This document shows positions 9,001 to 61,505 of a DNA stretch of 64,000 bases, one piece after another (the first letter of the stretch is position 1; each line of letters starts with the position of its first letter). The translations under genes and the position numbers were made by a program. Source of the DNA: Eledone cirrhosa (lineage: Eukaryota); the NCBI GenBank assembly GCA_964016885.1, contig OZ024745.1, positions 3,844,001 to 3,908,000 of the forward strand, written 5' to 3'. The notes under the pieces were generated by a model. That model was given only the letters and a program-made list of their open reading frames with translations. It searched no databases and was not told the DNA's origin.

Positions 9001-12000
9001 CACAGAGAATGGTAGGTTATAGTTACAGGATGGGACCACAGAGAATGGTAGGTTATAGTTGCAGGATGGGGCCACAGAGAATGGTAGGTTATAGTTGCAG
9101 GATGGGGCCACAGAGAATGGTAGGTTATAGTTGCAGGATGGGGCCGGAGAATGGTAGGTTATAGTTGCAGGATGGGGCCACAGAGAATGGTAGGTTATAG
9201 TTGCAGGATGGGGCCACAGAGAATGGTAGGTTATAGTTGCAGGATGGGGTCACAGAGAATGGTAGGTTATAGTTGCAGGATGGGGCCGGAGAATGGTAGG
9301 TTATAGTTGCAGGATGGGGCCACAGAGAATGGTAGGTTATAGTTGCAGGATGGGGCCACAGAGAATAGTAGGTTATAGTTGCAGGATGGGGTCACAGAGA
9401 ATGGTAGGTTATAGTTGCAGGATGGGGCCACAGAGAGTGGTAGGTTATAGTTGCAGGATGGGGCCGGAGAATGGTAGGTTATAGTTGCAGGATGGGGCCG
9501 GAGAATGGTAGGTTATAGTTGCAGGATGGGGCCGGAGAATGGTAGGTTATAGTTGCAGGATGGGACCTGAGAATGGTAGGTTATAGTTGCAGGATGGGGC
9601 CGGAGAATGGTAGGTTATAGTTGCAGGATGGGGCCGGAGAATGGTAGGTTATAGTTGCAGGATGAGGTCAGAGAATGGTAGGTTATAGTTGCAGGATGGG
9701 GCCGGAGAATGGTAGGTTATAGTTGCAGGATGAGGTCAGAGAATGGTAGGTTATAGTTGCAGGATGAGGTCAGAGAATGGTAGGTTATAGTTGCAGGATG
9801 GGGCCGGAGAATGGTAGGTTATAGTTGCAGGATGGGGCCACAGAGAATGGTAGGTTATAGTTGCAGGATGGGGCCACAGAGAATGGTAGGTTATAGTTGC
9901 AGGATGGGGCCACAGAGAATGGTAGGTTATAGTTGCAGGATGGGGCCACAGAGAATGGTAGGTTATAGTTGCAGGATGGGGTCACAGAGAATGGTAGGTT
10001 ATAGTTGCAGGATGGGGCCACAGAGAATGGTAGGTTATAGTTGCAGGATGGGGCCACGGAGAATGGTAGGTTATAGTTGCAGGATGGGGTCACAGAGAAT
10101 GGTAGGTTATAGTTGCAGGATGGGGCCACAGAGAGTGGTAGGTTATAGTTGCAGGATGGGGCCACAGAGAATGGTAGGTTATAGTTGCAGGATGGGGTCA
10201 CAGAGAATGGTAGGTTATAGTTGCAGGATGGGGCCACAGAGAATGGTAGGTTATAGTTGCAGGATGGGGCCACAGAGAATGGTAGGTTATAGTTGCAGGA
10301 TGGGGTCACAGAGAATGGTAGGTTATAGTTGCAGGATGGGGTCACAGAGAGTGGTAGGTTATAGTTGCAGGATGGGGTCAGAGAATGGTAGGTTATAGTT
10401 GCAGGATGGGGTCAGAGAATGGTAGGTTATAGTTGCAGGATGGGGCCACAGAGAGTGGTAGGTTATAGTTGCAGGATGGGGTCAGAGAATGGTAGGTTAT
10501 AGTTGCAGGATGGGGTCAGAGAATGGTAGGTTATAGTTGCAGGATGGGGCCACAGAGAGTGGTAGGTTATAGTTGCAGGATGGGGCCACAGAGAGTGGTA
10601 GGTTATAGTTGCAGGATGGGGTCAGAGAATGGTAGGTTATAGTTGCAGGATGGGGTCACAGAGAGTGGTAGGTTATAGTTGCAGGATGGGGTCAGAGAAT
10701 GGTAGGTTATAGTTGCAGGATGGGGTCAGAGAATGGTAGGTTATAGTTGCAGGATGGGGCCACAGAGAGTGGTAGGTTATAGTTGCAGGATGGGGCCACA
10801 GAGAGTGGTAGGTTATAGTTGCAGGATGGGGTCAGAGAATGGTAGGTTATAGTTGCAGGATGGGACCACAGAGAATGGTAGGTTATAGTTGCAGGATGGG
10901 GCCACAGAGAATGGTAGGTTATAGTTGCAGGATGGGGTCAGAGAATGGTAGGTTATAGTTGCAGGATGGGGCCACAGAGAATGGTAGGTTATAGTTGCAG
11001 GATGGGGTCAGAGAATGGTAGGTTATAGTTGGAGGATGGGGCCACAGAGAATGGTAGGTTATAGTTGCAGGATGGGGTCAGAGAATGGTAGATTATAGTT
11101 GGAGGATGGGGTCAGAGAATGGTAGGTTATAGTTGCAGGATGGGGTCAGAGAATGGTAGGTTATAGTTGCAGGATGGGGCCACAGAGAATGGTAGGTTAT
11201 AGTTGCAGGATGGGGTCAGAGAATGGTAGGTTATAGTTGCAGGATGGGGTCACAGAGAATGGTAGGTTATAGTTGCAGGATGGGGTCAGAGAATGGTAGG
11301 TTATAGTTGCAGGATGGGGCCACAGAGAATGGTAGGTTATAGTTGCAGGATGGGGTCAGAGAATGGTAGGTTATAGTTGCAGGATGGAATCACAGAGAAT
11401 GGTAGGTTATAGTTGCAGGATGGGGCCAGAGAGAATGGTAGGTTATAGTTGCAGGATGGAATCACAGAGAATGGTAGGTTATAGTTGCAGGATGGGGCCA
11501 CAGAGAATGGTAGGTTATAGTTGCAGGATGGAATCACAGAGAATGGTAGGTTATAGTTGCAGGATGGGATCACAGAGAATGGTAGGTTATAGTTGCAGGA
11601 TGGAATCACAGAGAATGGTAGGTTATAGTTGCAGGATGGAATCACAGAGAATGGTAGGTTATAGTTGCAGGATGGAATCACAGAGAATGGTAGGTTATAG
11701 TTGCAGGATGGGGTCACAGAGAATGGTAGGTTATAGTTGCAGGATGGGGTCACAGAGAATGGTAGGTTATAGTTGCAGGATGGGGTCACAGAGAATGGTA
11801 GGTTATAGTTGCAGGATGGGGTCACAGAGAATGGTAGGTTATAGTTGCAGGATGGGGTCACAGAGAATGGTAGGTTATAGTTGCAGGATGGGGTCACAGA
11901 GAATGGTAGGTTATAGTTGCAGGATGGAATCACAGAGAATGGTAGGTTATAGTTGCAGGATGGAATCACAGAGAATGGTAGGTTATAGTTGCAGGATGGG

Positions 12001-15000
12001 ATCACAGAGAATGGTAGGTTATAGTTGCAGGATGGAATCACAGAGAATGGTAGGTTATAGTTGCAGGATGGGGTCACAGAGAATGGTAGGTTATAGTTGC
12101 AGGATGGGGTCACAGAGAATGGTAGGTTATAGTTGCAGGATGGGGTCACAGAGAATGGTAGGTTATAGTTGCAGGATGGGGTCACAGAGAATGGTAGGTT
12201 ATAGTTGCAGGATGGGGTCACAGAGAATGGTAGGTTATAGTTGCAGGATGGGGTCACAGAGAATGGTAGGTTATAGTTGCAGGATGGGGTCACAGAGAAT
12301 GGTAGGTTATAGTTGCAGGATGGGGTCACAGAGAATGGTAGGTTATAGTTGCAGGATGGGGTCACAGAGAATGGTAGGTTATAGTTGCAGGATGGGGTCA
12401 CAGAGAATGGTAGGTTATAGTTGCAGGATGGGGTCAGAGAATGGTAGGTTATAGTTGCAGGATGGGGCCACAGAGAATGGTAGGTTATAGTTGCAGGATG
12501 GGGTCACAGAGAATGGTAGGTTATAGTTGCAGGATGGGGTCACAGAGAATGGTAGGTTATAGTTGCAGGATGGGGCCACAGAGTATGGTAGGTTATAGTT
12601 GCAGGATGGGGTCACAGAGAATGGTAGGTTATAGTTGCAGGATGGGGCCACAGAGAATGGTAGGTTATAGTTGCAGGATGGGGTCACAGAGAATGGTAGG
12701 TTATAGTTGCAGGATGGGGTCACAGAGAATGGTAGGTTATAGTTGCAGGATGGAATCACAGAGAATGGTAGGTTATAGTTGCAGGATGGAATCACAGAGA
12801 ATGGTAGGTTATAGTTGCAGGATGGGGTCACAGAGAATGGTAGGTTATAGTTGCAGGATGGGGTCACAGAGAATGGTAGGTTATAGTTGCAGGATGGGGT
12901 CGGGAGAGAATGGTAGGTTATAGTTGCAGGATGGGGCCACAGAGTATGGTAGGTTATAGTTGCAGGATGGGGCCACAGAGAATGGTAGGTTATAGTTGCA
13001 GGATGGGGCCACAGAGAATGGTAGGTTATAGTTGCAGGATGGGGCCACAGAGAATGGTAGGTTATAGTTGCAGGATGGGGCCACAGAGAATGGTAGGTTA
13101 TAGTTGCAGGATGGGGCCACAGAGAATGGTAGGTTATAGTTGCAGGATGGGGCCACAGAGTATGGTAGGTTATAGTTGCAGGATGGGGTCAGAGAATGGT
13201 AGGTTATAGTTGCAGGATGGGGCCACAGAGAATGGTAGGTTATAGTTGCAGGATGGGGTCACAGAGAATGGTAGGTTATAGTTGCAGGATGGGGCCACAG
13301 AGTATGGTAGGTTATAGTTGCAGGATGGGGCCACAGAGAATGGTAGGTTATAGTTGCAGGATGGGGCCACAGAGAATGGTAGGTTATAGTTGCAGGATGG
13401 GGCCACAGAGTATGGTAGGTTATAGTTGCAGGATGGGGTCAGAGAATGGTAGGTTATAGTTGCAGGATGGGGTCACAGAGAATGGTAGGTTATAGTTGCA
13501 GGATGGGGCCACAGAGAATGGTAGGTTATAGTTGCAGGATGGGGCCGGAGAATGGTAGGTTATAGTTGCAGGATGGGGTCAGAGAATGGTAGGTTATAGT
13601 TGCAGGATGGGACCGGAGAATGGTAGGTTATAGTTGCAGGATGGGGTCACAGAGAATGGTAGGTTATAGTTGCAGGATGGGGTCACAGAGAATGGTAGGT
13701 TATAGTTGCAGGATGGGGCCACAGAGAATGGTAGGTTATAGTTGCAGGATGGGGCCACAGAGAATGGTAGGTTATAGTTGCAGGATGGGGTCAGAGAGAA
13801 TGGTAGGTTATAGTTGCAGGATGGGGCCGGAGAATGGTAGGTTATAGTTGCAGGATGAGGTCAGAGAATGGTAGGTTATAGTTGCAGGATGGGGCCGGAG
13901 AATGGTAGGTTATAGTTGCAGGATGGGGCCACAGAGAATGGTAGGTTATAGTTGCAGGATGGGGCCACAGAGAATGGTAGGTTATAGTTGCAGGATGGGG
14001 CCACAGAGAATGGTAGGTTATAGTTGCAGGATGGGGTCACAGAGAATGGTAGGTTATAGTTGCAGGATGGGGCCACAGAGAATGGTAGGTTATAGTTGCA
14101 GGATGGGGCCACAGAGAATGGTAGGTTATAGTTGCAGGATGGGGTCACAGAGAATGGTAGGTTATAGTTGCAGGATGGGGCCACAGAGAGTGGTAGGTTA
14201 TAGTTGCAGGATGGGGCCACAGAGAATGGTAGGTTATAGTTGCAGGATGGGGTCACAGAGAATGGTAGGTTATAGTTGCAGGATGGGGCCACAGAGAATG
14301 GTAGGTTATAGTTGCAGGATGGGGCCACAGAGAATGGTAGGTTATAGTTGCAGGATGGGGTCACAGAGAATGGTAGGTTATAGTTGCAGGATGGGGTCAC
14401 AGAGAGTGGTAGGTTATAGTTGCAGGATGGGGTCAGAGAATGGTAGGTTATAGTTGCAGGATGGGGTCAGAGAATGGTAGGTTATAGTTGCAGGATGGGG
14501 CCACAGAGAGTGGTAGGTTATAGTTGCAGGATGGGGTCAGAGAATGGTAGGTTATAGTTGCAGGATGGGGTCAGAGAATGGTAGGTTATAGTTGCAGGAT
14601 GGGGCCACAGAGAGTGGTAGGTTATAGTTGCAGGATGGGGCCACAGAGAGTGGTAGGTTATAGTTGCAGGATGGGGTCAGAGAATGGTAGGTTATAGTTG
14701 CAGGATGGGGTCACAGAGAGTGGTAGGTTATAGTTGCAGGATGGGGTCAGAGAATGGTAGGTTATAGTTGCAGGATGGGGTCAGAGAATGGTAGGTTATA
14801 GTTGCAGGATGGGGCCACAGAGAGTGGTAGGTTATAGTTGCAGGATGGGGCCACAGAGAGTGGTAGGTTATAGTTGCAGGATGGGGTCAGAGAATGGTAG
14901 GTTATAGTTGCAGGATGGGACCACAGAGAATGGTAGGTTATAGTTGCAGGATGGGGCCACAGAGAATGGTAGGTTATAGTTGCAGGATGGGGTCAGAGAA

Positions 15001-18000
15001 TGGTAGGTTATAGTTGCAGGATGGGGCCACAGAGAATGGTAGGTTATAGTTGCAGGATGGGGTCAGAGAATGGTAGGTTATAGTTGGAGGATGGGGCCAC
15101 AGAGAATGGTAGGTTATAGTTGCAGGATGGGGTCAGAGAATGGTAGGTTATAGTTGGAGGATGGGGTCAGAGAATGGTAGGTTATAGTTGCAGGATGGGG
15201 TCAGAGAATGGTAGGTTATAGTTGCAGGATGGGGCCACAGAGAATGGTAGGTTATAGTTGCAGGATGGGGTCAGAGAATGGTAGGTTATAGTTGCAGGAT
15301 GGGGTCACAGAGAATGGTAGGTTATAGTTGCAGGATGGGGTCAGAGAATGGTAGGTTATAGTTGCAGGATGGGGCCACAGAGAATGGTAGGTTATAGTTG
15401 CAGGATGGGGTCAGAGAATGGTAGGTTATAGTTGCAGGATGGAATCACAGAGAATGGTAGGTTATAGTTGCAGGATGGGGCCAGAGAGAATGGTAGGTTA
15501 TAGTTGCAGGATGGAATCACAGAGAATGGTAGGTTATAGTTGCAGGATGGGGCCACAGAGAATGGTAGGTTATAGTTGCAGGATGGAATCACAGAGAATG
15601 GTAGGTTATAGTTGCAGGATGGGATCACAGAGAATGGTAGGTTATAGTTGCAGGATGGAATCACAGAGAATGGTAGGTTATAGTTGCAGGATGGAATCAC
15701 AGAGAATGGTAGGTTATAGTTGCAGGATGGAATCACAGAGAATGGTAGGTTATAGTTGCAGGATGGGGTCACAGAGAATGGTAGGTTATAGTTGCAGGAT
15801 GGGGTCACAGAGAATGGTAGGTTATAGTTGCAGGATGGGGTCACAGAGAATGGTAGGTTATAGTTGCAGGATGGGGTCACAGAGAATGGTAGGTTATAGT
15901 TGCAGGATGGGGTCACAGAGAATGGTAGGTTATAGTTGCAGGATGGGGTCACAGAGAATGGTAGGTTATAGTTGCAGGATGGAATCACAGAGAATGGTAG
16001 GTTATAGTTGCAGGATGGAATCACAGAGAATGGTAGGTTATAGTTGCAGGATGGGATCACAGAGAATGGTAGGTTATAGTTGCAGGATGGGATCACAGAG
16101 AATGGTAGGTTATAGTTGCAGGATGGAATCACAGAGAATGGTAGGTTATAGTTGCAGGATGGGGTCACAGAGAATGGTAGGTTATAGTTGCAGGATGGGG
16201 TCACAGAGAATGGTAGGTTATAGTTGCAGGATGGGGTCACAGAGAATGGTAGGTTATAGTTGCAGGATGGGGTCACAGAGAATGGTAGGTTATAGTTGCA
16301 GGATGGGGTCACAGAGAATGGTAGGTTATAGTTGCAGGATGGGGTCACAGAGAATGGTAGGTTATAGTTGCAGGATGGGGTCACAGAGAATGGTAGGTTA
16401 TAGTTGCAGGATGGGGTCACAGAGAATGGTAGGTTATAGTTGCAGGATGGGGTCACAGAGAATGGTAGGTTATAGTTGCAGGATGGGGTCAGAGAATGGT
16501 AGGTTATAGTTGCAGGATGGGGCCACAGAGAATGGTAGGTTATAGTTGCAGGATGGGGTCACAGAGAATGGTAGGTTATAGTTGCAGGATGGGGTCACAG
16601 AGAATGGTAGGTTATAGTTGCAGGATGGGGCCACAGAGTATGGTAGGTTATAGTTGCAGGATGGGGTCACAGAGAATGGTAGGTTATAGTTGCAGGATGG
16701 GGCCACAGAGAATGGTAGGTTATAGTTGCAGGATGGGGTCACAGAGAATGGTAGGTTATAGTTGCAGGATGGGGTCACAGAGAATGGTAGGTTATAGTTG
16801 CAGGATGGAATCACAGAGAATGGTAGGTTATAGTTGCAGGATGGAATCACAGAGAATGGTAGGTTATAGTTGCAGGATGGGGTCACAGAGAATGGTAGGT
16901 TATAGTTGCAGGATGGGGTCACAGAGAATGGTAGGTTATAGTTGCAGGATGGGGTCGGGAGAGAATGGTAGGTTATAGTTGCAGGATGGGGCCACAGAGT
17001 ATGGTAGGTTATAGTTGCAGGATGGGGCCACAGAGAATGGTAGGTTATAGTTGCAGGATGGGGCCACAGAGTATGGTAGGTTATAGTTGCAGGATGGGGC
17101 CACAGAGAATGGTAGGTTATAGTTGCAGGATGGGGTCACAGAGAATGGTAGGTTATAGTTGCAGGATGGGGCCACAGAGTATGGTAGGTTATAGTTGCAG
17201 GATGGGGCCACAGAGAATGGTAGGTTATAGTTGCAGGATGGGGCCACAGAGAATGGTAGGTTATAGTTGCAGGATGGGGCCACAGAGTATGGTAGGTTAT
17301 AGTTGCAGGATGGGGTCAGAGAATGGTAGGTTATAGTTGCAGGATGGGACCTGAGAATGGTAGGTTATAGTTGCAGGATGGGGTCAGAGAGAATGGTAGG
17401 TTATAGTTGCAGGATGGGGTCAGAGAATGGTAGGTTATAGTTGCAGGATGCGGTCAGAGAATGGTAGGTTATAGTTGCAGGATGGGGCCACAGAGAATGG
17501 TAGGTTATAGTTGCAGGATGGGGCCACAGAGAATGGTAGGTTATAGTTGCAGGATGGGGTCAGAGAGAATGGTAGGTTATAGTTGCAGGATGGAATCACA
17601 GAGAATGGTAGGTTATAGTTGCAGGATGGGGCCACAGAGAATGGTAGGTTATAGTTGCAGGATGGGGTCAGAGAGAATGGTAGGTTATAGTTGCAGGATG
17701 GGGTCAGAGAGAATGGTAGGTTATAGTTGCAGGATGGGGCCACAGAGAATGGTAGGTTATAGTTGCAGGATGGGGTCAGAGAGAATGGTAGGTTATAGTT
17801 GCAGGATGGGGTCAGAGAATGGTAGGTTATAGTTGCAGGATGGGGCCACAGAGAATGGTAGGTTATAGTTGCAGGATGGGGTCAGAGAGAATGGTAGGTT
17901 ATAGTTGCAGGATGGGGTCAGAGAATGGTAGGTTATAGTTGCAGGATGGGGCCACAGAGAATGGTAGGTTATAGTTGCAGGATGGGGCCACAGAGAATGG

Positions 18001-19290
18001 TAGGTTATAGTTGCAGGATGGGGTCACAGAGAATGGTAGGTTATAGTTGCAGGATGGGGCCACAGAGAATGGTAGGTTATAGTTGCAGGATGGGGCCGGA
18101 GAATGGTAGGTTATAGTTGGAGGATGGGGCCACAGAGAATGGTAGGTTATAGTTGCAGGATGGGGCCGGAGAATGGTAGGTTATAGTTGGAGGATGGGGC
18201 CACAGAGAATGGTAGGTTATAGTTGCAGGATGGGGTCAGAGAATGGTAGGTTATAGTTGCAGGATGGGGCCACAGAGAATGGTAGGTTATAGTTGCAGGA
18301 TGGGGTCAGAGAGAATGGTAGGTTATAGTTGCAGGATGGGGTCAGAGAGAATGGTAGGTTATAGTTGCAGGATGGGGTCAGAGAGAATGGTAGGTTATAG
18401 TTGCAGGATGGAGTCACAGAGAATGGTAGGTTATAGTTGCAGGATGGGGCCACAGAGAATGGTAGGTTATAGTTGCAGGATGGGGTCAGAGAGAATAGTA
18501 GGTTATAGTTGCAGGATGGGGCCACAGAGAATGGTAGGTTATAGTTGCAGGATGGGGTCAGAGAGAATGGTAGGTTATAGTTGCAGGATGGGGTCAGAGA
18601 GAATGGTAGGTTATAGTTGCAGGATGGGGTCAGAGAGAATGGTAGGTTATAGTTGCAGGATGGGGTCAGAGAGAATGGTAGGTTATAGTTGCAGGATGGG
18701 GTCAGAGAGAATGGTAGGTTATAGTTGCAGGATGGGGCCACAGAGAATGGTAGGTTATAGTTGCAGGATGGGGTCAGAGAGAATGGTAGGTTATAGTTGC
18801 AGGATGGGGTCAGAGAGAATGGTAGGTTATAGTTGCAGGATGGGGCCACAGAGAATGGTAGGTTATAGTTGCAGGATGGAGTCACAGAGAATGGTAGGTT
18901 ATAGTTGCAGGATGGGGCCACAGAGAATGGTAGGTTATAGTTGCAGGATGGGGTCAGAGAGAATGGTAGGTTATAGTTGCAGGATGGGGTCAGAGAGAAT
19001 GGTAGGTTATAGTTGCAGGATGGGGTCAGAGAGAATGGTAGGTTATAGTTGCAGGATGGGGCCACAGAGAATGGTAGTTTATAGTTGCAGGATGGAATCA
19101 CAGAGAATGGTAGGTTATAGTTGCAGGATGGGGCCACAGAGAATGGTAGGTTATAGTTGCAGGATGGAATCACAGAGAATGGTAGGTTATAGTTGCAGGA
19201 TGGGGCCACAGAGAATGGAAAGGTTATAGTTGCAGGATGGGGCCACAGAGGTTATAGCTGCAGGTTGGGGCCACAGAGAATGATAGGTTT
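1..19290. repeat. Large satellite array, 36-bp unit GAGAATGGTAGGTTATAGTTGCAGGATGGGG(C/T)CACA with 34-bp variants; about 540 units, runs off the left edge
   Basis: Direct tandem periodicity. Variation is almost confined to the GGGG(c/t)cacag / ggag / agag segment. The array decays at about 19210-19290. Confidence 0.99.
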
Positions 19291-31871: not shown

Positions 31872-32068
31872 AGGAGGTGAGTTTTATTGTAGTACAGTAA
31901 AGCAATGCAGATATTGATTTAAAACTGCACTATCCACAAGTGTTTTTCAACCTTCATATCATGTCCTCCTATTTTATCTGATGAAAACACAAATGTTATT
32001 GCATGATGATATTTGTTTTTGAAATGCGCATAATAAAATACATGGAACTCATTTAACCATCTTTTGAT

Positions 32069-33755: not shown

Positions 33756-36700
33756 CATTCTATCTGACGTTCTAGCCACCCTACCATTCTATCTGACGTC
33801 CTAACCACTCTACCATTCTATCTGACGTCCTAACCACTCTACCATTCGATCTGACGTCCTAACCACTCTACCATTCGATCTGACGTCCTAACCACTCTAC
33901 CATTCTATCAGACGTTCTAACCACTCTACCATTCTATCTGACGTCCTAACCACTCTACCATTCTATCTGACGTTCTAACCACTCTACCATTCTATCTGAC
34001 GTTCTAACCACTCTACCATTCTATCTGACGTTCTAACCACTCTACCATTCTATCAGACGTCCTAACCACTCTACTATTCTATCTGACGTCCTAACCACTC
34101 TACCATTCTATCTGACGTTCTAACCACTCTACCATTCTATCTGACGTCCTAAACACTCTACCATTCTATCTGACGTTCTAACCACTCTACCATTCTATCT
34201 GACGTCCTAACCACTCAACCATTCTATCTGACGTCCTAAAGACTCAACCATTCTATCTGACGTCCTAACCACTCTACCATTCTATCTGACGTTCCAACCA
34301 CTCTACCATTCTATCTGACGTTCTAACCACTCTACCATTATGTCAGACGTTCTAACGACTCTACTATTCTATCTGACGTTCTAACCACTCTACCATTCTA
34401 TCTGACGTTCTAACCACTCTACCATTCTATCTGACATCCTAACCACTCTACCATTCTATCTGACGTCCTAACCACTCTACCATTCTATCAGACGTTCTAA
34501 CCACTCTACCGTTCTATCTGACGTTCTAACCACTCTACCATTCTATCAGACGTTCTAACCACTCTACCATTCTATCAGACGTTCTAACCACTCTACCATT
34601 CTATCTGACGTTCTAGCCACCCTACCATTCTATCTGACGTTCTAGCCATCCTACCATTCTATCTGACGTCCTAACCACTCTACCATTCTATCTGACGTTC
34701 TAACCACTCTACCATTCTATCTGACGTCCTAACCACTCTACCATTCGATCTGACGTCCTAACCACTCTACCATTCTATCAGACGTTCTAACCACTCTACC
34801 ATTCTATCTGACGTTCTAACCACTCTACCATTCTATCTGACATCCTAACCACTCTACCATTCTATCTGACGTCCTAACCACTCTACCATTCTATCAGACG
34901 TTCTAACCACTCTACCGTTCTATCTGACGTTCTAACCACTCTACCATTCTATCAGACGTTCTAACCACTCTACCATTCTATCAGACGTTCTAACCACTCT
35001 ACCATTCTATCTGACGTTCTAACCACTCTACCATTCTATCTGACGTCCTAACCACTCTACCATTCGATCTGACGTCCTAACCACTCTACCATTCTATCAG
35101 ACGTTCTAACCACTCTACCATTCTATCTGACGTTCTAACCACTCTACCATTCTATCAGACGTTCTAACCACTCTACCATTCTATCAGACGTTCTAACCAC
35201 TCTACCATTCTATCAGACGTTCTAACCACTCTACCATTCTATCTGACGTTCTAACCATTCTACCATTCTATCAGACGTTCTAACCACTCTACCATTCTAT
35301 CAGACGTTCTAACCACTCTACCATTCTATCTGACGTTCTAGCCACCCTACCATTCTATCTGACGTTCTAGCCACCCTACCATTCTATCTGACGTCCTAAC
35401 CACTCTACCATTCTATCTGACGTTCTAACCACTCTACCATTCTATCTGACGTCCTAACCACTCTACCATTCGATCTGACGTCCTAACCACTCTACCATTC
35501 TATCAGACGTTCTAACCACTCTACCATTCTATCTGACGTTCTAACCACTCTACCATTCTATCAGACGTTCTAACCACTCTACCATTCTATCAGACGTTCT
35601 AACCACTCTACCATTCTATCAGACGTTCTAACCACTCTACCATTCTATCTGACGTTCTAACCACTCTACCATTCTATCAGACGTTCTAACCACTCTACCA
35701 TTCTATCTGACGTCCTAACCACTCTACCATTCTATCTGACGTTCTAACCACTCTACCATTCTATCAGACGTTCTAACCACTCTACTATTCTATCTGACGT
35801 CCTAACCACTCTACCATTCTATCTGACGTCCTAAAGACTCAACCATTCTATCAGACGTCTAACCACTCTACCATTCTATCTGACGTCCTAACCACTCTAC
35901 CATTCTATCTGACGTTCCAACCACTCTACCATTCTATCTGACGTTCCAACCACTCTACCATTCGATCTGACGTCCTAACCACTCTACCATTCTATCAGAC
36001 GTTCTAACCACTCTACCATTCTATCTGACGTTCTAACCACTCTACCATTCTATCAGACGTTCTAACCACTCTACCATTCTATCAGACGTTCTAACCACTC
36101 TACCATTCTATCAGACGTTCTAACCACTCTACCATTCTATCTGACGTTCTAACCACTCTACCATTCTATCAGACGTTCTAACCACTCTACCATTCTATCT
36201 GACGTCCTAACCACTCTACCATTCTATCTGACGTTCTAACCACTCTACCATTCTATCAGACGTTCTAACCACTCTACCATTCTATCTGACGTCCTAACCA
36301 CTCTACCATTCTATCTGACGTTCTAACCACTCTACCATTCTATCAGACGTTCTAACCACTCTACCATTCTATCAGACGTTCTAACCACTCTACCATTCTA
36401 TCAGACGTCTAACCACTCTACCATTCTATCTGACGTCCTAACCACTCTACCATTCTATCTGACGTTCCAACCACTCTACCATTCTATCTGACGTTCTAAC
36501 CACTCTACCATTATGTCAGACGTTCTAACGACTCTACTATTCTATCTGACGTTCTAACCACTCTACCATTCTATCAGACGTTCTAACCACTCTACCATTC
36601 TATCAGACGTTCTAACGACTCTACCATTATATCAGACTTCTAACCACTCTACCATTCTATCAGACGTTCTAACCACTCTACCATTCTGTCAGACGTTCTA

Positions 36701-39055
36701 ACGACTCTACCATTCTATCAGACGTTCTAACGACTCTACCATTCTATCAGACTTCTAACCACTCTACCATTCTATCAGACGTTCTAACGACTCTTACATT
36801 CTATCTGACGTTCTAACCACTCTACCATTCTATCAGACGTTCTAACCACTCTACCATTCTGTCAGACGTTCTAACGACTCTACCATTCTATCAGACGTTC
36901 TAACGACTCTACCATTCTATCAGACTTCTAACCACTCTACCATTCTATCAGACGTTCTAACGACTCTTACATTCTATCTGACGTTCTAACCACTCTACCA
37001 TTTTGTCAGACGTTCTAACCACTCTACCATTCTATCAGACGTTCTAACCACTCTACTATTCTATCAGACGTTCTAACGACTCTACCATTCTATCAGACTT
37101 CTAACCACTCTACCATTCTATCAGACGTTCTAACGACTCTACCATTCTATCAGACGTTCTAACCACTCTACTATTCTATCAGACGTTCTAACGACTCTAC
37201 CATTCTATCAGACGTTCTAACCACTCTACCATTCTATCTGACGTTCTAACCACTCTACTATTCTATCAGACGTTCTAACGACTCTACCATTCTATCTGAC
37301 GTTCTAACCACTCTACCATTCTATCTGACGTTCTAACCACTCTACTATTCTATCAGACGTTCTAACCACTCTACTATTCTATCAGACGTTCTAACGACTC
37401 TACCATTCTATCAGACGTTCTAACGACTCTACTATTCTATCAGACGTTCTAACCACTCTACTATTCTATCAGACGTTCTAACGACTCTACTATTCTATCA
37501 GACGTTCTAACCACTCTACCATTCTATCAGACGTTCTAACGACTCTACCATTCTATCTGACGTTCTAACCACTCTACCATTCTATCTGACGTTCTAACCA
37601 CTCTACTATTCTATCAGACGTTCTAACCACTCTACTATTCTATCAGACGTTCTAACCACTCTACCATTCTATCTGACGTTCTAACCACTCTACTATTCTA
37701 TCAGACGTTCTAACCACTCTACTATTCTATCAGACGTTCTAACCACTCTACCATTCTATCAGACGTTCTAACCACTCTACCATTCTATCTGACGTTCTAA
37801 CCACTCTACTATTCTATCAGACGTTCTAACGACTCTACTATTCTATCAGACGTTCTAACCACTCTACCATTCTATCAGACGTTCTAACGACTCTACCATT
37901 CTATCTGACGTTCTAACCACTCTACCATTCTATCTGACGTTCTAACCACTCTACTATTCTATCAGACGTTCTAACCACTCTACTATTCTATCAGACGTTC
38001 TAACGACTCTACCATTCTATCAGACGTTCTAACGACTCTACTTTTCTATCAGACGTTCTAACCACTCTACTATTCTATCAGACGTTCTAACGACTCTACT
38101 ATTCTATCAGACGTTCTAACCACTCTACCATTCTATCAGACGTTCTAACGACTCTACCATTCTATCTGACGTTCTAACCACTCTACCATTCTATCTGACG
38201 TTCTAACCACTCTACTATTCTATCAGACGTTCTAACCACTCTACTATTCTATCAGACGTTCTAACCACTCTACCATTCTATCAGACGTTCTAACCACTCT
38301 ACCATTCTATCTGACGTTCTAACCACTCTACTATTCTATCAGACGTTCTAACCACTCTACTATTCTATCAGACGTTCTAACCACTCTACCATTCTATCAG
38401 ACGTTCTAACCACTCTACCATTCTATCTGACGTTCTAACCACTCTACTATTCTATCAGACGTTCTAACCACTCTACTATTCTATCAGACGTTCTAACCAC
38501 TCTACCATTCTATCAGACGTTCTAACCACTCTACCATTCTATCTGACGTTCTAACCACTCTACTATTCTATCAGACGTTCTAACCACTCTACTATTCTAT
38601 CAGACGTTCTAACCACTCTACCATTCTATCAGACGTTCTAACCACTCTACCATTCTATCTGACGTTCTAACCACTCTACCATTCTATCTGACGTTCTAAC
38701 CACTCTACCATTCTATCTGACGTTCTAACCACTCTACTATTCTATCAGACGTTCTAACCACTCTACTATTCTATCAGACGTTCTAACCACTCTACCATTC
38801 TATCTGACGTTCTAACCACTCTACCATTCTATCAGACGTTCTAACCACTCTACCATTCTATCAGACGTTCTAACGACTCTACCATTCTATCTGACGTTCT
38901 AACCACTCTACCATTCTATCAGACGTTCTAACCACTCTACCATTCTATCAGACGTTCTAACGACTCTACCATTCTATCAGACGTTCTAACCACTCTACTA
39001 TTCTATCAGACGTTCTAACGACCCTACCATTCTATCAGACGTTCTAACGACTCTA
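33756..39055. repeat. 29-bp satellite CATTCTATC(T/A)GACGTTCTAACCACTCTAC, about 183 copies, embedded in a SINE
   Basis: Tandem periodicity of 29. SINE sequence continues on both flanks. Confidence 0.98.
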
Positions 39056-45573: not shown

Positions 45574-48500
45574 TAAGAGTAAGAAGTTTAAATGTTCGTG
45601 GCTTGGGGTCACCCTGGAAGCAGGGCCGCCTGCTCAACGACCTCAGGTCTCTGGAAATGTATGTGATTGCCGTCAGCGAAACCTGGATTTCCGACACGCG
45701 CGCACTAGCCCCCATTTTCGACGACTATCATATCTTCGCATCTGTTAGCACGCCGGGAATAGGAGGTGGGGTGGCAGTGCTGTTTAAGAAGGGCCTGGAT
45801 CTCGAGCTAAGGTCGATCTTCCGGAACGCGGACGGTAAGTTGGTGGTCCTGGATGTGAGCAGTAGCGAAGGTGGTGCCTTTAGACTGCTGGCCGTCTACG
45901 CCCCTACTGGGGCCGGACGACCGGACTTCTTTAGGCGCCTGGAAACTTTTCTGGGTACGTCTCGCCCTTTTACTGTTAGCGGGGGACTGGAACGGCATAT
46001 TAGACGTACGCTGGGATTGTGTAGGAGTAGCTAATAGGAGCGGGAGGGGGGTGCAAAAGCCTTAAGCACCTAATCAGCCAGTTCCAACTGTCTGACAGGT
46101 ATCGACTAGATTTCCCCAATGCGCCAGTGTGGACGTGGACCAACCGCATAGGGTCATATAGATCGTATATAGACAGGATCTTGATTAGGGAAATAGATAG
46201 AAATAGTGTAGGCTGTCCACTTTTTAAAACGGTTAAAATGTGTGATCTGTATGGTCAACCTAGATAAAACGCGTAGGTTGGGACCTGGTTACTGGAAGCT
46301 GAACATGTCATTTCCGACACGTAAGGCATACAGGCACCGAGTCAACAATTAAGTTAAGCAAACGTTGACAGGGGGGATCATCAACAACAGATGGTGGGGA
46401 GCTCTCAAAAGAGAGATTAGAGTAACTTCGATAGAGTTCAGCAAAGAACTAGCGTTAGAGAAAAATAGAAAGGAGGAGGAGTTGGTAGATAAGTTAGACG
46501 AGGCCATTTGTAGTGACTTTGCAACTGACGTGCTAGCGGCGAGAATGGCATTAGACCATTTCTTCAATGCGAAACACGAAGGTTGCATTGTCAGAGCTAA
46601 GGCGCGTGCGCTGAGAAACGAGGGAACCAAAGCTGTTCGATGCGCCCGCGTGGCAGAGGCGCAGCGTGGTAATAAAACCACAATTCGGTCTTTGGCGGAC
46701 CAAGACTGACACGAGATAAGCGATTCCAAGCGGATGTGTGAGGCCTTTCGCCAGCACTTTGCTCGGTTGTTCGGGGAGAGAGGTGGGTCAGAGAGAGAGT
46801 AGCGGATTTCAGTCCCCACCTTGACGGCTTGCCGCGCATCTCGACGGTCGACGCTGAGCGCTGCGAAAGGCCGATTACTTCAGCCGAAATTCAAGACGCC
46901 CTTGTCGGCTGCATGAAGCGCAAGTCACCCGGTTTGGATGGCCTGCCCTACGAGCTTTACGTAAATATGCCAGACTTGTTCTCCGATCTCCTCGAAGCGC
47001 TCTACTGCAACTGGCAGCAGAATGGGAGTATTCCCAGTTCTGTGAGCAGAGGAGTGGTGACGCTGATTAGGAAAGACGAGAACAAGAGGGATACATTAGA
47101 CAACTTTAGGCCCATAACTCTGCTCAACACAGAGTTTAAGATTTTGGCCAAGGTGTTAGCAAAGAGATTGGCGCTTGTCGTCGAGGATTTGATTGGGGAG
47201 GCGCAAACTTGCGCAATCCCAGCCAGGTCCATACACGACAATCTGCATCTCATGCGATACATCATAGAGAGGGTAGGGTGTAAACCTGGCTTGGGTGGGG
47301 CACTGATCAATTTAGATCAATCAAAAGCATTCGATAGGATCGACCATCGGTATCTGGAGGCTGTCCTCAAAGCAGCTGGCTTCGGCCCTGTCTTCAGAAG
47401 CTGGATCGCTACAATGCACAGCGGCACCTGCTCGGTGGTCAAGGTTAATGGCCACCTCTCGGAACCGTTTCGGCTCTCCCAATCGGTCCGTCAAGGGTTC
47501 CCGCTCTCTTCCCTTCTGTACGTATTACCTCACGAGCCTTTACTGCGGAGGCTGGAGCTGTTGCAGGGCATCCCGCTCGAACCGGGACGCGGAAAGGTTG
47601 TGTCGGCTTATGCGGACGACATCACCGTGATGGTGTTGGACACCTCAGAAATTGAGGCGGACAACACTTATTGAAGGAATATGAAAGGTTGACAGGAGCC
47701 AAACTTAACCCGGAAAAGTCAGTGGGCTTGCAGCTCGGAACCTGGAGAGGCAAGTCCATGCCGTCCAACAGCGTCGTGGGGCGCTGGACGAACGAACCGG
47801 TAAAGTTGCTCGGGGTTTGGTTCGGACCAGACCTCCAGGTGGAAAAGAATTGGGACGAGGTAACGAGCAGGGTAGCCAATCTCACCCAAAAATGGGCTGC
47901 GAGGAAGCTATCACTGAAAGGTCGGACGGAGGTGGCGAATGCGTACATCGCGTCCCTCATCTACTACCGTCTGACCGTTGTGCCTTGCCCCCGTCCGCGC
48001 CTCACCAAGTTGGAACGGCTGCTCTTCAAATTTTTGTGGAGAGGACAAGTTCCGTTGGTGAGGCGGTCCATCTGCTGCCAGCAGCTTCTACGCGAAGGGC
48101 TGGGCATGCCTTGGCTAATGATGCGACATCTCCAGATATTCTGCCTAAACGTTGAACAGGTGTGGTCGCCGTTTATCAGACGGGCCTTTCCGCAGCTCGT
48201 TTCTTTGACTGAGCTGCAGTCCTGGGTCAAGAAGAGACCAAGACTGGGTGACTGGCACCTGGAATGTTGCCAGGCACGCACTGCCCTCTACCAAGCGGGC
48301 AATGCGATCAGTGAAACTTCCACTCTCGAGTTCTATAGAAGATTAGTGGTGGGAAAGTGCGATGACGCACTCTGAGAAGCTTTGGGCCTCGACAAAGTCG
48401 AACTGACCAGTCTGTTCCGGAGGACTTTCGAGCCGGGGACGATGGACAATTTCCAGAAATCCCTCGTCTGGCAGTGCTACCGGCACTGCCGGTTCGGGAT

Positions 48501-48681
48501 AAACTCTACAGGCACGGAAGTGCTGTTAGACGGACCTGCTCGAGATGCGCACATCGCGACGAAACCGTTTTGCACGCATTTGTCCAATGCCCGTGCATTA
48601 CTGACTTGTGGAGTTATGTCGAACAGCTACTGTCGCGTGTGGAACGGATCCGGCTATCGACCGAGTCCATAGTGAAGATCT
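45574..48681 (+). mobile_element. Tx1/L1-clade non-LTR retrotransposon ORF2 (APE endonuclease, RT, Zn-binding motif), inactivated by stops and frameshifts
   Basis: EN motifs SLNVRGL, SETW, VYAP, GDWN. RT motifs KSPGLDGLP, FRPITLLNTEFKI, DQSKAFDR, RQG, YADD (47609-47620). C-terminal CSRC...HAFVQC. No ORF1; the 3' end runs into a microsatellite. Confidence 0.95.
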
Positions 48682-48780
48682 GTGGTGGTGGTGGTGGTAG
48701 TGGTAGTAGTAGTAGTAGTAGCAGTAGTAGTAGTAGTGGTGGTGGTGGTGGTGGTAGTAGTAGTAGTAGTAGTGGTGGTG

Positions 48781-48855
<75 letters not shown>

Positions 48856-49672
48856 GCAGTAGTAGTAGTAGTAGTAGTGGTGGTAGCAAATGTTTTTGGA
48901 AAGAAACTACAGATGATTTGTTTAATGGCCACAAGGGCCATTAAACAAATCATCAGATGTCCAAATCCGACAACAGCGTTCGTGTAGTGACGTCAAACAC
49001 ATTTACAAAGCATTCTGGGTAGAAAAGGATGTTGTTTACAGCTAGAAGTTGTTATTGCTGTTGTTGTTGCTGCTGCTGCTGTGTCATTGTTGCTGTTGTT
49101 GTTGTTACTGTTGTTGTTGTTGTTGTTGTTGTTACTGTTGTTGTTGTTGTTACTGTTGTTGTTGTTATTGCTGTTGTTGCTACTGTACTGTTGTTGTTGT
49201 TGCTACTGTACTGTTGTTGTTGTTATTGCTGTTGTTGCTACTGTTGTTGTTGTTGCTGTTATTGTTACTGCTGTTGTTGTTGCTGTTGTTGTTGTTGCTG
49301 CTGTTGTTGCTACTGTACTGTTGTTGTTGTTGTTGTTGTTACTGTTGTTGTTGTTGTTGTTGTTGTTGCTACTGTACTGTTGTTGTTGTTGTTGTTGCTA
49401 CTGTATTGTTGTTGTTGTTGTTGTTGCTGCTGTACTGTTGTTGTTGTTGTTGTTGTTGCTACTGTAATGTTGTTGTTGTTGTTGTTACTGTTGTTGTTAC
49501 TGCTGTTGCTGTTGCTGCTGCTGTTGTTGCTACTGTAATGTTGTTGTTGTTGTTGTTGTTGTTGCTGTTGTTGCTACTGTACTGTTGTTGTTGCTGTTGT
49601 TGTTGTTGCTGTTGTTGCTGTTGCTGCTGTTGTTGCTACTGCTGTTGCTACTGTACTGTTGTTGTTGTTGTT
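48682..49672. repeat. (GGT/AGT)n (48682-48886) and (GTT/GCT)n (49047-49672) trinucleotide tracts
   Basis: Seen directly in the sequence. Confidence 0.96.
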
Positions 49673-54462: not shown

Positions 54463-54533
<71 letters not shown>

Positions 54534-54957
54534 ATACAATATATTAACAAATGGAAACTATATTTATAAAACCATATTTATTTCATTATACATATTTCAA
54601 GGGCCACCAGAGCAAACTACGGTGCACTTTCATCAGATAAAATATAATATAGGTTAGTTTTATAAATAGATATTGACATACCCTTAAAAAATGCAACCAT
54701 TCTGGTTGGAATCTCCTGGATAGTGGAGTTATTAGATTTATTGTTGGTTTATTATGCAAATTAGTGTTGGAAAGGTTTAAAACCGTATAATTATATTAAG
54801 CCGTTGGAATAGGGAAAAAGAAAGAGAAAAAACCTGAGTATATTTAAGTGAGAGAGAATAGCGTAATTTTGAGAGAAGAGGCGAAGAAATAAATATAGCG
54901 TGGATGAATACCGTAAGATGGATAAACAATAATAATAAACAAATTAAATATAACCTC

Positions 54958-55050
<93 letters not shown>

Positions 55051-55143: not shown

Positions 55144-55228
<85 letters not shown>

Positions 55229-55339
55229 TTGTAATATAATGAAACGAAATTTCATTTCTCACTCTTAGTACGGCACTTACATAAATGTAAGTATGTATGT
55301 ATACGTACATACATATATGTATACAGACGTACAGTAGCA

Positions 55340-55379
<40 letters not shown>

Positions 55380-55579
55380 CAGGTACACATATATATATGT
55401 ACGTATCAGTTTAGCGAACGTTTATTATAACGCTCGCTTTGTCCGTTTGTGAACAAGCGAACAGCCTGATTTATGCCATACGGTGTTACTTTGTGGTTCA
55501 ATGCATGGGGTTGCAGAACAATAATATGAGAGACGTAAAATAAGAAAATTATAAAATTAACTTACTTACTAAAATATCA

Positions 55580-55659
55580 CTTCCAACTAATTAGTTTCTG
55601 GAATGGAATAAATATATTTTCCGAAGAAAACATCGAGAATCATTCCGTCGTCAGGGAAG
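55580..55659 (-). ncRNA. Type I hammerhead ribozyme motif, copy 1 (inverted)
   Basis: Exact reverse complement of 55804-55883. Confidence 0.7.
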
Positions 55660-55803
55660 ACTATTCTCATCTAAGTATCCAGGCAAAGCGTGGACTCTGG
55701 AAACTTATTAAAAAATAATTCAGTGGATAGAAAATAGCAAAGCGTGGACTGAATTCCTAGCCATTGAGAAAACCACCGACGCAGAGGCAGTGATGAGAAT
55801 AGT

Positions 55804-55883
55804 CTTCCCTGACGACGGAATGATTCTCGATGTTTTCTTCGGAAAATATATTTATTCCATTCCAGAAACTAATTAGTTGGAAG
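55804..55883 (+). ncRNA. Type I hammerhead ribozyme motif, copy 2
   Basis: Stem I CTTCC/GGAAG; core CTGACGA; stem II GGAATG/CATTCC with a long loop; GAAA; palindromic stem III AACTAATTAGTT; GUU cleavage triplet ending at 55878. Confidence 0.72.
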
Positions 55884-56325
55884 TGATATTTTAGTAAGTA
55901 AGTTAATTTTATAATTTTCTTATTTTACGTCTCTCATATTATTGTTCTGCAACCCCATGCATTGAACCACAAAGTTACTAAGACAAAACCTATATATTTG
56001 CTAGCATTGATATGCATCTGTATGTATATATATGTTACTAGATATTAATTCTTTATAATTATCTCCAAATTATTTGTCGAGCAATATTGGCCATGGCTGC
56101 TGCTATGGTAGCAGGCAGGCCGCTGTCTTATTAGCAAACCACTTTCCACTGATTGACCTCGATGTCACGTGATTGATTCTTTTTGGATTTGCCACCGACG
56201 CAGAGGCAGTGATTTTCTCAATGGCTAGGAATTCAGTCCACGCTTTGCTATTTTCTATCCACTGAATTATTTTTTAATAAGTTTCCAGAGTCCACGCTTT
56301 GCCTGGATACTTAGATGAGAATAGT

Positions 56326-56405
56326 CTTCCCTGACGACGGAATGATTCTCTATGTTTTCTTCGGAAAATATATTTATTCCATTCCAGAAACTAATTAGTT
56401 GGAAG
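56326..56405 (+). ncRNA. Type I hammerhead ribozyme motif, copy 3
   Basis: Same as copy 2 with one loop II substitution; 522 bp downstream. Confidence 0.72.
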
Positions 56406-56572
56406 TGATATTTTAGTAAGTAAGTTAATTTTATAATTTTCTTATTTTACGTCTCTCATATTATTGTTCTGCAACCCCATGCATTGAACCACAAAGTTAC
56501 TAAGACAAAACCTATATATTTGCTAGCATTGATATGCATCTGTATGTATATATATGTTACTAGATATTAATT

Positions 56573-56639
<67 letters not shown>

Positions 56640-56641
<2 letters not shown>

Positions 56642-57396
56642 ACAGAAAGGGACCAATGATTCGATTGTACATAATCCCACACCACACATTCACCTTTGGA
56701 CTCGGTGAAGTTCCCTAGTCACATGGAGGTGGTCTGATCCCCAGATTCTCACATTGTGTGCGTTCAGTTTTCCTGAAACATGAAAGCTTGCCTCATCACT
56801 AAAACATCTTCAGAAATTCGTTCCAGCCTGTCAACTGCAAACTCTTTTCGTCTTGGTTTATCATTTGGCTCGAGTGCCTGTAAGGGTTGCACTTTGTAAG
56901 TATCGCAAGTTCTTGTGTAGGAGTTTTTGTATTGTTGAACGTGGCATCTGTAACTGTCTGGCAGCAGTACGGATGGATTTTGTAGGAGAACGCTGAAAGG
57001 CTTGTCTTACACGATAGATATTTTCCTCAGATGTTCTTGGTCGTCAACTCCTCTCTTTATCTGGCACTGTCCCTGTCTCATTAAATTTCTTGTGCCATAC
57101 ACGAATTGACAGACGTGACGGTGGATCTCTTCCATACTTAGTTCTGTAGTTTCGCTGAGTCTGCGTATCCGATTTTGTTTCAATAAACCATGGCACACAT
57201 TGTGCCTTTTCTTGAGGAGTAGCCATTTTTTAGGGGTTCATTTAACAGTACCTCTTTCATCAACAGAATACCAGACATACACAAATGCAGTTTGATTAAA
57301 AACATTGATAACTACTGAGAACATAGAACAAATCTGATTAAGATATCTCATTGTAATATATTTTTTAAATTGTAAAGAGACTTTATGGACACCCTG
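56640..57396 (-). mobile_element. Tc1/mariner-type DNA transposon, left TIR plus truncated, degenerate transposase
   Basis: TA|CAGGGTGTCCATAAAGTC terminus at 57396. ORF from 57226 MATPQEKAQCVPWFIETKSDTQTQRNYRTKYGRDPPSR (DUF4817-like HTH), then FSDEASFHVSGKLNAHNVRIWGS and PKVNVWCG..IIGPF. Broken at (TA)n. Confidence 0.88.
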
Positions 57397-60275: not shown

Positions 60276-61505
60276 ATGATGATCGAGATCAGTGGTGCAG
60301 AAGCTTAGATCACTGGTACAGAAACTGAGATCAGTGGTGCAGAAGCTTAGATCAGATGTGTGATGGTTGAGATCAGTGGTACAGAAACTGAGATCAAATG
60401 TGTGATGGCTGAGATCAGTGGTACAGAAACTAAGATCAGATGTGTGATGGCTGAGATCAGTGGTACAGAAACTGAGATCAAATGTGTGATGGTTGAGATC
60501 AGTGGTACAGAAACTGAGATCATATGTGTGATGGCTGAGATCAGTGGTACAGAAACTGAGATCAAATGTGTGATGGTTGAGATCAGTGGTACAGAAACTG
60601 AGATCAGATGTGTGATGGCTGAGATCAGTGGTACAGAAACTGAGATCAAATGTGTGATGGCTGAGATCAGTGGTGCAGAAACTGAGATCAAATGTGTGAT
60701 GGTTGAGATCAGTGGTACAGAAACTGAGATCAAATGTGTGATGGCTGAGATCAGTGGTGCAGAAGCTGAGATCAAATGTGTGATGGCTGAGATCAGTGGT
60801 GCAGAAGCTGAGATCAAATGTGTGATGGCTGAGATCAGTGGTGCAGAAACTGAGATCAAATGTGTGATGGCTGAGATCAGTGGTACAGAAACTGAGATCA
60901 AATGTGTGATGGCTGAGATCAGTGGTACAGAAACTGAGATCAAATGTGTGATGGTTGAGATCAGTGGTACAGAAACTGAGATCAGATGTGTGATGGCTGA
61001 GATCAGTGGTACAGAAACTGAGATCAAATGTGTGATGGTTGAGATCAGTGGTACAGAAACTGAGATCAAATGTGTGATGGCTGAGATCAGTGGTGCAGAA
61101 ACTGAGATCAAATGTGTGATGGTTGAGATCAGTGGTACAGAAACTGAGATCAAATGTGTGATGGCTGAGATCAGTGGTGCAGAAGCTGAGATCAAATGTG
61201 TGATGGCTGAGATCAGTGGTGCAGAAGCTGAGATCAAATGTGTGATGGCTGAGATCAGTGGTGCAGAAACTGAGATCAAATGTGTGATGGCTGAGATCAG
61301 TGGTACAGAAACTGAGATCAAATGTGTGATGGTTGAGATCAGTGGTACAGAAACTGAGATCAAATGTGTGATGGCTGAGATCAGTGGTGCAGAAACTGAG
61401 ATCAAATGTGTGATGGCTGAGATCAGTGGGACAGAAACTGAAATCAAATGTGTGATGGCTGAGATCAGTGGTGCAGAAGCTGAGATCAGATCTGTGATGG
61501 TTGAA
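60276..61505. repeat. 42-bp minisatellite ATGGCTGAGATCAGTGGTACAGAAACTGAGATCAAATGTGTG, about 28 copies
   Basis: Tandem periodicity with an internal CTGAGATCA sub-repeat and a roughly 420-bp higher-order duplication. Confidence 0.97.

What the first reader, a model, noticed from the sequence alone, without database searches (positions are those of the whole stretch)
55488..56578. Recent triplicated hammerhead-ribozyme module (inverted + direct + direct) inserted in (TA)n: a Penelope-like / retrozyme element with no ORF
Seen: three nearly identical copies of CTTCC-CTGACGA-cGGAATG..CATTCCa-GAAA-CTAATTAGTT-GGAAG, two on the plus strand 522 bp apart and one inverted. A 21-nt patch (CCACCGACGCAGAGGCAGTGA, 55773 = 56192) sits at the inversion junction. 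Known: Penelope-like elements carry type I hammerheads with palindromic stem III in pseudo-LTRs, form partial tandems with inverted 5' copies, and often insert in AT microsatellites; retrozymes are non-coding hammerhead-bounded units that yield circular RNAs. Inference: double self-cleavage would release a 522-nt non-coding RNA, so this may be a young non-autonomous ribozyme retroelement family. The long loop II (about 35 nt) and the C-A closing mismatch are atypical.
Basis: partly seen in the sequence, partly recalled or inferred. Interest (0 to 1): 0.8.

Follow-up and report, generated by a model that had tools for sequence, protein, structure and literature searches.

The report
Ribozyme-bearing hitchhiker of Penelope-like retrotransposons
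A 522-base non-coding repeat carrying a hammerhead-ribozyme motif occurs about 12,000 times in TA microsatellites of this animal genome; it is likely copied by the enzyme of Hydra-clade Penelope-like retrotransposons, and the ends of its copies hint at how the ribozyme and that enzyme would divide the work.

Summary
Confirmed. Three near-identical type I hammerhead motifs (two direct, 522 nt apart, one inverted) form one head-to-head insertion of an ORF-less element: 372 exact copies of this subfamily's ribozyme, 12,089 of the wider family. Stem II covaries across subfamilies, while the C·A mismatch, GUU site and palindromic stem III are kept. The 'long loop' is a further stem. This is a non-LTR retrozyme, i.e. 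a non-autonomous Penelope-like element (PLE), a known class. That fits partly cleaved linear templates better than monomer circles alone. This copy's left end is fused to another retrozyme family. Cleavage, expression, circles and the exact helper are untested.

The parts
55148..55226 (.). (TA)n array at the outer left end of the composite
55227..55488 (-). 3' end (unit 47-321, its long end) of a second young retrozyme family 'B', fused to the left arm at a 4-5 nt microhomology; includes B's own internal TA run at 55343-55372
   Evidence: (1721 first-look candidates, 97-99% identity)
55485..55772 (-). Left (inverted) arm: unit 335-522, then +1 to about +100; non-canonical end
55580..55659 (-). 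Hammerhead copy 1; predicted cut between 55585 and 55584
55773..55794 (+). 22-nt local inversion at the head-to-head junction (unit 314-335); joins the right arm through GAT
55792..55878 (+). Right arm, 5'-truncated unit (436-522)
55804..55883 (+). Hammerhead copy 2: stem I 5 bp, CUGACGA, C·A mismatch, stem IIa 6 bp, internal loop, stem IIb with UUCG (55830-55849), GAAA, palindromic stem III (55868-55877), GUU; predicted cut after 55878
55879..56400 (+). Full 522-nt unit between the two predicted cuts; no ORF, about 35% GC
55944..55970 (+). Bulged hairpin GTTC-TG..CA-TT-GAAC just 3' of the short (+61) end; also at 56466-56492 (+) and 55493-55519 (-); candidate recognition element for the reverse transcriptase
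56074..56084 (+). Second shared motif (GAGCAA / GAGAACAAA type), about 20 nt 3' of the long (+179) end; weaker match
56326..56405 (+). Hammerhead copy 3; predicted cut after 56400
56401..56579 (+). Terminal +1..+179 piece, the canonical long end (118-nt tail beyond +61 at 56461)
56576..56638 (.). (TA)31 target array at the right end

Best explanation
This ORF-less 522-nt hammerhead repeat is a non-autonomous Penelope-like element, likely copied into TA arrays by the reverse transcriptase-endonuclease of a Hydra-clade PLE, which would bind a conserved hairpin in the RNA and start copying at two fixed internal sites. Shown: unit, copy number, TA targeting, the two ends (+61, +179), their pairing in head-to-head loci, covarying stems, the shared hairpin. 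Inferred: a multi-unit locus is transcribed; the helper nicks both strands of a TA array; one nick primes at +179 and the other at +61; both cDNAs run back across the first ribozyme, stop at variable points and are joined head to head by microhomology. The ribozyme would be weak by design (3-bp stem III as monomer, GUU site, C·A mismatch) and cut only part of the time, probably as a dimer through the 10-nt palindrome. Where it has cut, it sets the template's 5' end. Longer tandems grow partly after insertion by unequal crossing-over.
For: Ends: 74 of 76 head-to-head loci with both ends canonical are long+short (0 long+long, 2 short+short; 15 more have an odd end, 10 loci skipped as nested). 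27 of 27 in 60 new position-ordered loci (1 odd, 1 complex). 88 of 89 3' ends abut (TA)n. This is the PLE 'tail' pattern, which in vitro marks two internal RT starts (PMC11167929). Ribozyme under selection: 20 double changes against 7.0 in shuffles, 0/500; six common stem IIa versions, 268 of 294 fully paired. Hairpin: 15,152 pattern hits against 20 control; covaries across families A, D, E, F, where A has no blastn similarity to D, E or F at E<0.05; short ends lie 4-10 nt before it in all four. Two autonomous families carry the same layout and a variant hairpin (GCTC/GAGC, ACTC/GAGT). One has the RWK, DKT, CxCX5C, CxxC and CxH motifs and the other CxCX5C, CxxC and CxH, as listed for Hydra in PMC8557442. 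5' stops: 27 of 208 arms at +1..+20 against 7.8 expected; hazard 10.4 against 3.0 per kb; replicated 9.9 against 2.9 (5 vs 1.5 stops, P=0.017). Dimer fold -43 against -31 kcal/mol for two monomers; the active monomer fold is about 0.5% of the ensemble.
Against: No autonomous element with the exact GTTC/GAAC hairpin or with sequence similarity to the unit was found (50 GIY-YIG loci; 256 ribozyme-holding loci), so the helper is inferred from layout alone. Family B has two ends but lacks the hairpin. The 5'-stop excess is modest against the 20 nt just upstream (P=0.05), background hazard varies by zone (1.7-4.7 per kb), the zone is AT-rich, and the replication rests on 5 events. A few family D and B loci show no clear peak (not tested formally). 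Pooled distances between pieces do not separate linear from circular templates (1.7%, 2.0%, 1.7%), and 8 private variants shared by all of three or more pieces fit a circle equally well. No cleavage or expression data.
Confidence: 0.6

Rival explanations
1. Classic retrozyme model: double cleavage releases a 522-nt monomer that is ligated into a circle, and the PLE enzyme copies round the circle to give tandem units.
For: Circles are shown for coral, mussel and axolotl retrozymes (PMC7229834). The circular monomer folds more stably than shuffles (z -5.6). Units within a locus are closer than between loci (1.3% vs 2.3%). Subfamily variants are uniform within loci, and 30 private variants are shared by all pieces covering them.
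Against: A circle has no 5' end, so it does not predict the excess of stops at the cut. 14 private variants are shared across both arms but missing from another unit of the same locus; 9 of them, in 7 loci, follow the pattern of a multi-unit template, with 2 more. Trimers and tetramers often show local duplication after insertion. The PLE enzyme studied in vitro used uncleaved RNA (PMC11167929). Circles may still be part of the template pool.
Confidence: 0.25
2. The ribozyme fold is kept as a protein-binding or structural element and never cuts in vivo; the 5' stops near the cut come from weak RNA-DNA pairing in a U-rich stretch.
For: GUU site, C·A mismatch and low active fraction. Eight of nine Xenopus retrozyme dimers did not cleave in vitro (bioRxiv 2026.07.22.740005). 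PLE hammerheads show low activity (PMC4209133). About 80% of arms read through the site.
Against: Catalytic core and cleavage triplet are kept across subfamilies only 67-91% alike. The most U-rich zone (+21..+60) has a lower stop rate than +1..+20 (4.3 vs 10.4 per kb, P=0.007). Four arms stop exactly at +1.
Confidence: 0.12
3. Local artefact or decayed satellite rather than a mobile element.
For: This copy's junctions were not bridged by public contigs (uninformative); the window is full of tandem repeats.
Against: Dispersed copies on many contigs with unique flanks, fixed ends and varied junctions; read-derived contigs show the +61 end running into (TA)n.
Confidence: 0.03

Closest known systems
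Non-LTR retrozymes of animals (Cervera & de la Peña 2020, PMC7229834; Li, Clavereau & Pollet 2026, bioRxiv 10.64898/2026.07.22.740005)
   Same: ORF-less tandem units of a few hundred bases, low GC, one type I hammerhead per unit, proposed to ride on PLEs.
   Different: 522-571 nt (170-400 nt in the 2020 paper, within 51-972 bp of the 2026 one); mostly 1-3 units in head-to-head arms, not long arrays; long two-part stem II, C·A mismatch, GUU site; copy ends point to partly cleaved linear templates; circles not shown here.
Penelope-like elements, Hydra clade (Craig et al. 2021, PMC8557442)
   Same: Partial tandems, inverted 5'-truncated arm, tail at one end, (TA)n targeting, hammerhead in the terminal repeat; same order of ribozyme, short end, bulged hairpin and long end as in two Hydra-type families of this genome.
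   Different: No RT or GIY-YIG ORF; tail of 118 nt against the 30-40 bp described (78-90 nt in the two autonomous families here); no detectable sequence similarity to an autonomous element. The hairpin is not mentioned in the passages read.
Poseidon_Ac of the green anole (Frangieh et al. 2024, PMC11167929)
   Same: Two fixed internal starts downstream of the hammerhead; AT-rich target; ribozyme crossed by reverse transcription.
   Different: Autonomous; starts are adjacent and in an AC-rich stem-loop; that study saw no RNA ends at the cut, whereas genomic 5' ends here cluster just after it.
Minimal PLE hammerheads (Cervera & de la Peña 2014, PMC4209133)
   Same: Short helix I, long helix II, unpaired base 5' of stem II, palindromic helix III suited to dimers, opposite-strand pairs 100-700 bp apart.
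   Different: An unpaired A on the 3' side as well, a further hairpin on helix II, and a 3-bp helix III that could also fold as a monomer.

Membership tests
Type I hammerhead ribozyme | CUGANGA, GAAA and UH core joined by three stems, stem I open | tested here: met
   covariation
Type I hammerhead ribozyme | G10.1-C11.1 pair directly after the core (recalled consensus) | tested here: not met
   C·A in 290 of 294 copies, with G-C as the next pair
Type I hammerhead ribozyme | Match to an Rfam hammerhead model | tested here: not met
   no match at gathering score or at E<=10
Type I hammerhead ribozyme | Self-cleavage after the triplet | not testable with these tools
   indirect only: 5' stops cluster after the site
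Non-LTR retrozyme | At least two consecutive ORF-less units, each with a type I hammerhead, GC under 50% | tested here: met
Non-LTR retrozyme | Expressed as linear and circular monomer RNA | not testable with these tools
   no RNA run available to lay
Penelope-like element (non-autonomous) | Partial tandems, inverted 5'-truncated arm, tail at one end | tested here: met
Penelope-like element (non-autonomous) | Insertion into AT-rich or (TA)n targets | tested here: met
   88 of 89 3' ends
Penelope-like element (non-autonomous) | Sequence similarity to the terminal repeat of an autonomous PLE | tested here: inconclusive
   no blastn match in the loci sampled; shared layout and hairpin with Hydra-type families
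Penelope-like element (autonomous) | RT plus GIY-YIG ORF in cis | tested here: not met
   of 256 loci 12 have a same-strand PLE ORF upstream; 11 are separated by a TA array or another ribozyme, 1 is a mid-ORF chimera
Hydra clade (candidate helper H1) | RWK, DKT, CxCX5C, CxxC, CxH motifs; hammerhead; (TA)n insertion | tested here: met
   against PMC8557442 section 11; no tree was built

The most novel reading that the evidence does not exclude
A small bulged hairpin (RYTC stem, 2-nt bulge) is the cis signal by which Hydra-clade PLE enzymes pick their RNA and place the first of two starts; it has been kept by at least four independent ORF-less families (over 15,000 copies here). Each insertion uses one long and one short start on opposite strands, and the hammerhead's job in vivo is to trim the 5' end of a linear template part of the time, not to make a rolling circle.
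Probability: 0.4. Interest if true: 0.72.

Novelty: new member of a known kind. Interest (0 to 1): 0.5.

Why it matters
The class is known, but three things about it are open in the papers read: which enzyme moves animal retrozymes, whether the template is a circle, and what PLE hammerheads do in vivo. This family has thousands of young copies whose ends record each event. It gives a named helper clade, a 27-nt candidate signal with natural compensatory variants, and a genomic trace of partial cleavage, so all three questions become testable with an existing in vitro PLE assay and one RNA data set.

Tried and rejected
Rfam: no hammerhead hit. No tRNA in the window. RNA runs: no RNA holder listed; three DNA-like runs of one sample were laid and left the window's junctions uncovered, which shows nothing. 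Their joints cluster at +4..+37, but that stretch is the most conserved and is over-sampled, so I give it little weight. Helper search: Pfam GIY-YIG loci, older relatives, short-stem ribozyme pattern and an alternative hairpin pattern (16 hits vs 6 control; no ORF-linked family seen) found no direct parent. Both hairpin patterns needed a longer loop or other first base than the autonomous H1 hairpin has, so a GTTC-type autonomous relative could have been missed. Neptune-type elements (L061, L063, L064) lack the hairpin consensus and were set aside as helpers, on few families. The first hint of purely linear templates weakened in pooled distances and is reported as suggestive. Mutation load in the core equals the rest among young copies (1.2% vs 1.0%), as expected after insertion; selection shows only between subfamilies. 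Stop counts near unit 473-487 may be alignment artefacts of subfamily differences. Rows dropped: duplicate loci, 10 nested loci, 30 loci picked for ribozyme deletions and 10 further disordered loci. Earlier scan notes: none for this genome or sequence; one loosely related note.

Full report
Setting. The window lies on contig C5 of a 3.0-Gb animal genome rich in (TA)n. Its make-up recalls octopods; that is recalled and untested, and I used it only to choose paper searches.

Observation. A loose hammerhead scan of both strands found five motifs in 64 kb: the three reported, plus two of another family at 54644-54579 and 31970-32040. The element reads as a left arm on the minus strand (55485-55772), a 22-nt local inversion (55773-55794) and a right arm on the plus strand (55792-56579) made of a truncated unit, a full 522-nt unit and 179 nt past the last predicted cut. 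It has no ORF. Rfam gave no hammerhead match.

Family. The unit has 1779 first-look candidates, the 40 scored at 97-100% identity. A 33-nt motif specific to this subfamily has 372 exact hits and a 19-nt motif shared by relatives 12,089, control 0. Eight subfamily units of 522-571 nt are 67-91% alike. Sixty position-ordered loci differ from the column majority by 2.0%, so the window's subfamily is young.

Ribozyme. Stem IIa occurs in six common versions (133, 36, 33, 29, 14 and 12 of 294 copies), all fully paired; 290 of 294 keep the C·A mismatch and 293 the UU at the site (the count requires an intact core and palindrome). On 12 aligned copies, 94% of cells pair and 20 show changes on both sides against 7.0 in shuffles (0/500); slid controls fall to 29-57% (related sequences inflate such counts). 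The long loop is an internal loop plus a second stem, UUCG-capped in this subfamily. The active monomer fold is about 0.5% of the ensemble; a dimer through the 10-nt palindrome scores -43 against -31 kcal/mol (crude). The fold is therefore under selection between subfamilies but probably weak.

Ends. Arms end 61 or 179 nt past the cut, or at homologous places in other subfamilies. Of 91 head-to-head loci scored, 74 pair a long with a short end, 2 are short-short, none long-long and 15 have an odd end; 10 nested loci were skipped. In 60 new loci taken in order along two contigs, 27 were long+short, 1 odd, 1 complex (two elements) and 31 single-armed. 88 of 89 3' ends abut (TA)n; 22 of 31 single-arm 5' ends do. 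An optional tail on one of two inverted repeats is known for PLEs (PMC8557442, PMC3846280; passages read), and in vitro it marks two internal RT starts on uncleaved RNA (PMC11167929; parts 1-3 of 4 read). The tail here is 118 nt, against 30-40 bp described.

Shared signal and helper. Just 3' of the short end is a bulged hairpin. Three other ORF-less hammerhead families (units 459, 483, 485 nt) have it at the same place relative to their short ends. Family A shows no blastn similarity to them, although two of them resemble each other over 125 nt. The pattern has 15,152 hits, control 20; its six outer pairs are invariant and two inner pairs covary. One locus joins a family-A arm to the middle of a PLE ORF, which led to a young autonomous family (1391 candidates, the 40 scored at 97-100%). 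Its terminal repeat has a long-stem hammerhead, a short end, a hairpin with the compensated stem GCTC/GAGC eight bases on, and a long end 78 nt later, then the ORF. A second autonomous family has the same layout with ACTC/GAGT. Their proteins carry Hydra-clade motifs, unlike two Neptune-type proteins (PMC8557442 section 11 read). The helper is thus likely Hydra-type, but no element with the exact hairpin or with unit homology was found, and the chimera itself (1 of 256 loci) may be a plain insertion with deletion.

Template. 5' ends of arms pile up just after the predicted cut: 27 of 208 at +1..+20 against 7.8 expected, 4 at -12..-1, and four exactly at +1. As a hazard among arms that had already crossed one ribozyme: 10.4 per kb against 3.0 (P=9e-6), against 4.7 just upstream (P=0.05) and 4.3 in the U-rich zone downstream (P=0.007). 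The new set gave 9.9 against 2.9 (5 vs 1.5, P=0.017). About four in five arms pass the site. This fits linear RNAs cut at an upstream ribozyme and uncut at the last. Variant sharing is mixed: 14 private variants are shared across arms but absent from another unit, 9 in the pattern of a multi-unit template, and 2 more; pooled distances show nothing; variants common to all pieces fit circles too. Several trimers arose by duplication after insertion. Circles are not excluded.

This copy. Its left arm runs to +100 and then into the long end of family B, so the composite is long+long, against the rule. A deletion through a 4-5 nt microhomology after two insertions is the simplest reading; a template switch between families is possible.

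Prior work. Non-LTR retrozymes and their PLE origin are in print (PMC7229834: passages and Discussion read; bioRxiv 2026.07.22.740005: parts 1-3 of 5 read, supplements closed). Long helix II and opposite-strand pairs are in PMC4209133 (passages). An octopus repeat annotation does not mention ribozymes in its main text (PMC13282606, term search). Searches (listings) showed no paper on this family, on the hairpin, or on truncations clustering at PLE ribozyme sites; subscription journals, Repbase and supplements were not visible, so absence is not shown.

Verdict. Real, correctly read, and a new member of a known kind. Its worth lies in the mechanistic leads, each resting on genomic inference. 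Interest 0.5.

Noticed in passing
window 55227-55488 (-); loci L082-L100: Family B: a second young retrozyme (about 480-540 nt, short-stem hammerhead, internal TA run, two ends 58 nt apart, 1721 candidates). It lacks the bulged hairpin, so it may use another helper.
   Followed up: partly
window 54530-54960 (-) and 31970-32040 (+): Hammerhead-bearing 3' ends of a very common family ('C'); L239 and L245 show it downstream of a Hydra-type ORF. Both window copies stop at the short end.
   Followed up: partly
window 56640-57229 (-): Broken Tc1/mariner-type transposase (Pfam DUF4817), cut off at the TA array that the element abuts.
   Followed up: partly
L062:5695-6233, L173:700-1270, L214:1270-1830: Three more ORF-less hammerhead families (D, E, F; 459, 483, 485 nt) with about 50-nt stem II inserts and palindromic stem III; D has 3175 first-look candidates.
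   Followed up: partly
L061:985-1200, L183, L083, L347: A further hammerhead family with a CCGAAGA core variant, GCTC/GAGC hairpin and long/short ends; no ORF seen next to it.
   Followed up: no
L387-L396: Young Hydra-type autonomous PLE (about 680 aa) whose hammerhead core reads CCGACGA instead of CUGANGA in most copies seen.
   Followed up: partly
L061, L062, L070 3' regions: Neptune-type PLE whose terminal repeat appears to carry a U3-A8 hammerhead variant and two ends about 65 nt apart (read by eye).
   Followed up: no
L002, L104, L141, L201: Inversions whose outer end meets the start of the direct arm, like L1 twin priming (recalled), unlike the usual long+short form.
   Followed up: no
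window 1-19250, 33756-39055, 60325-61504: Long minisatellite arrays of 36 nt (542 copies), 29 nt (183) and 42 nt (28).
   Followed up: no
window 46742-48944 (+): Fragmented LINE-type reverse transcriptase ORFs.
   Followed up: no
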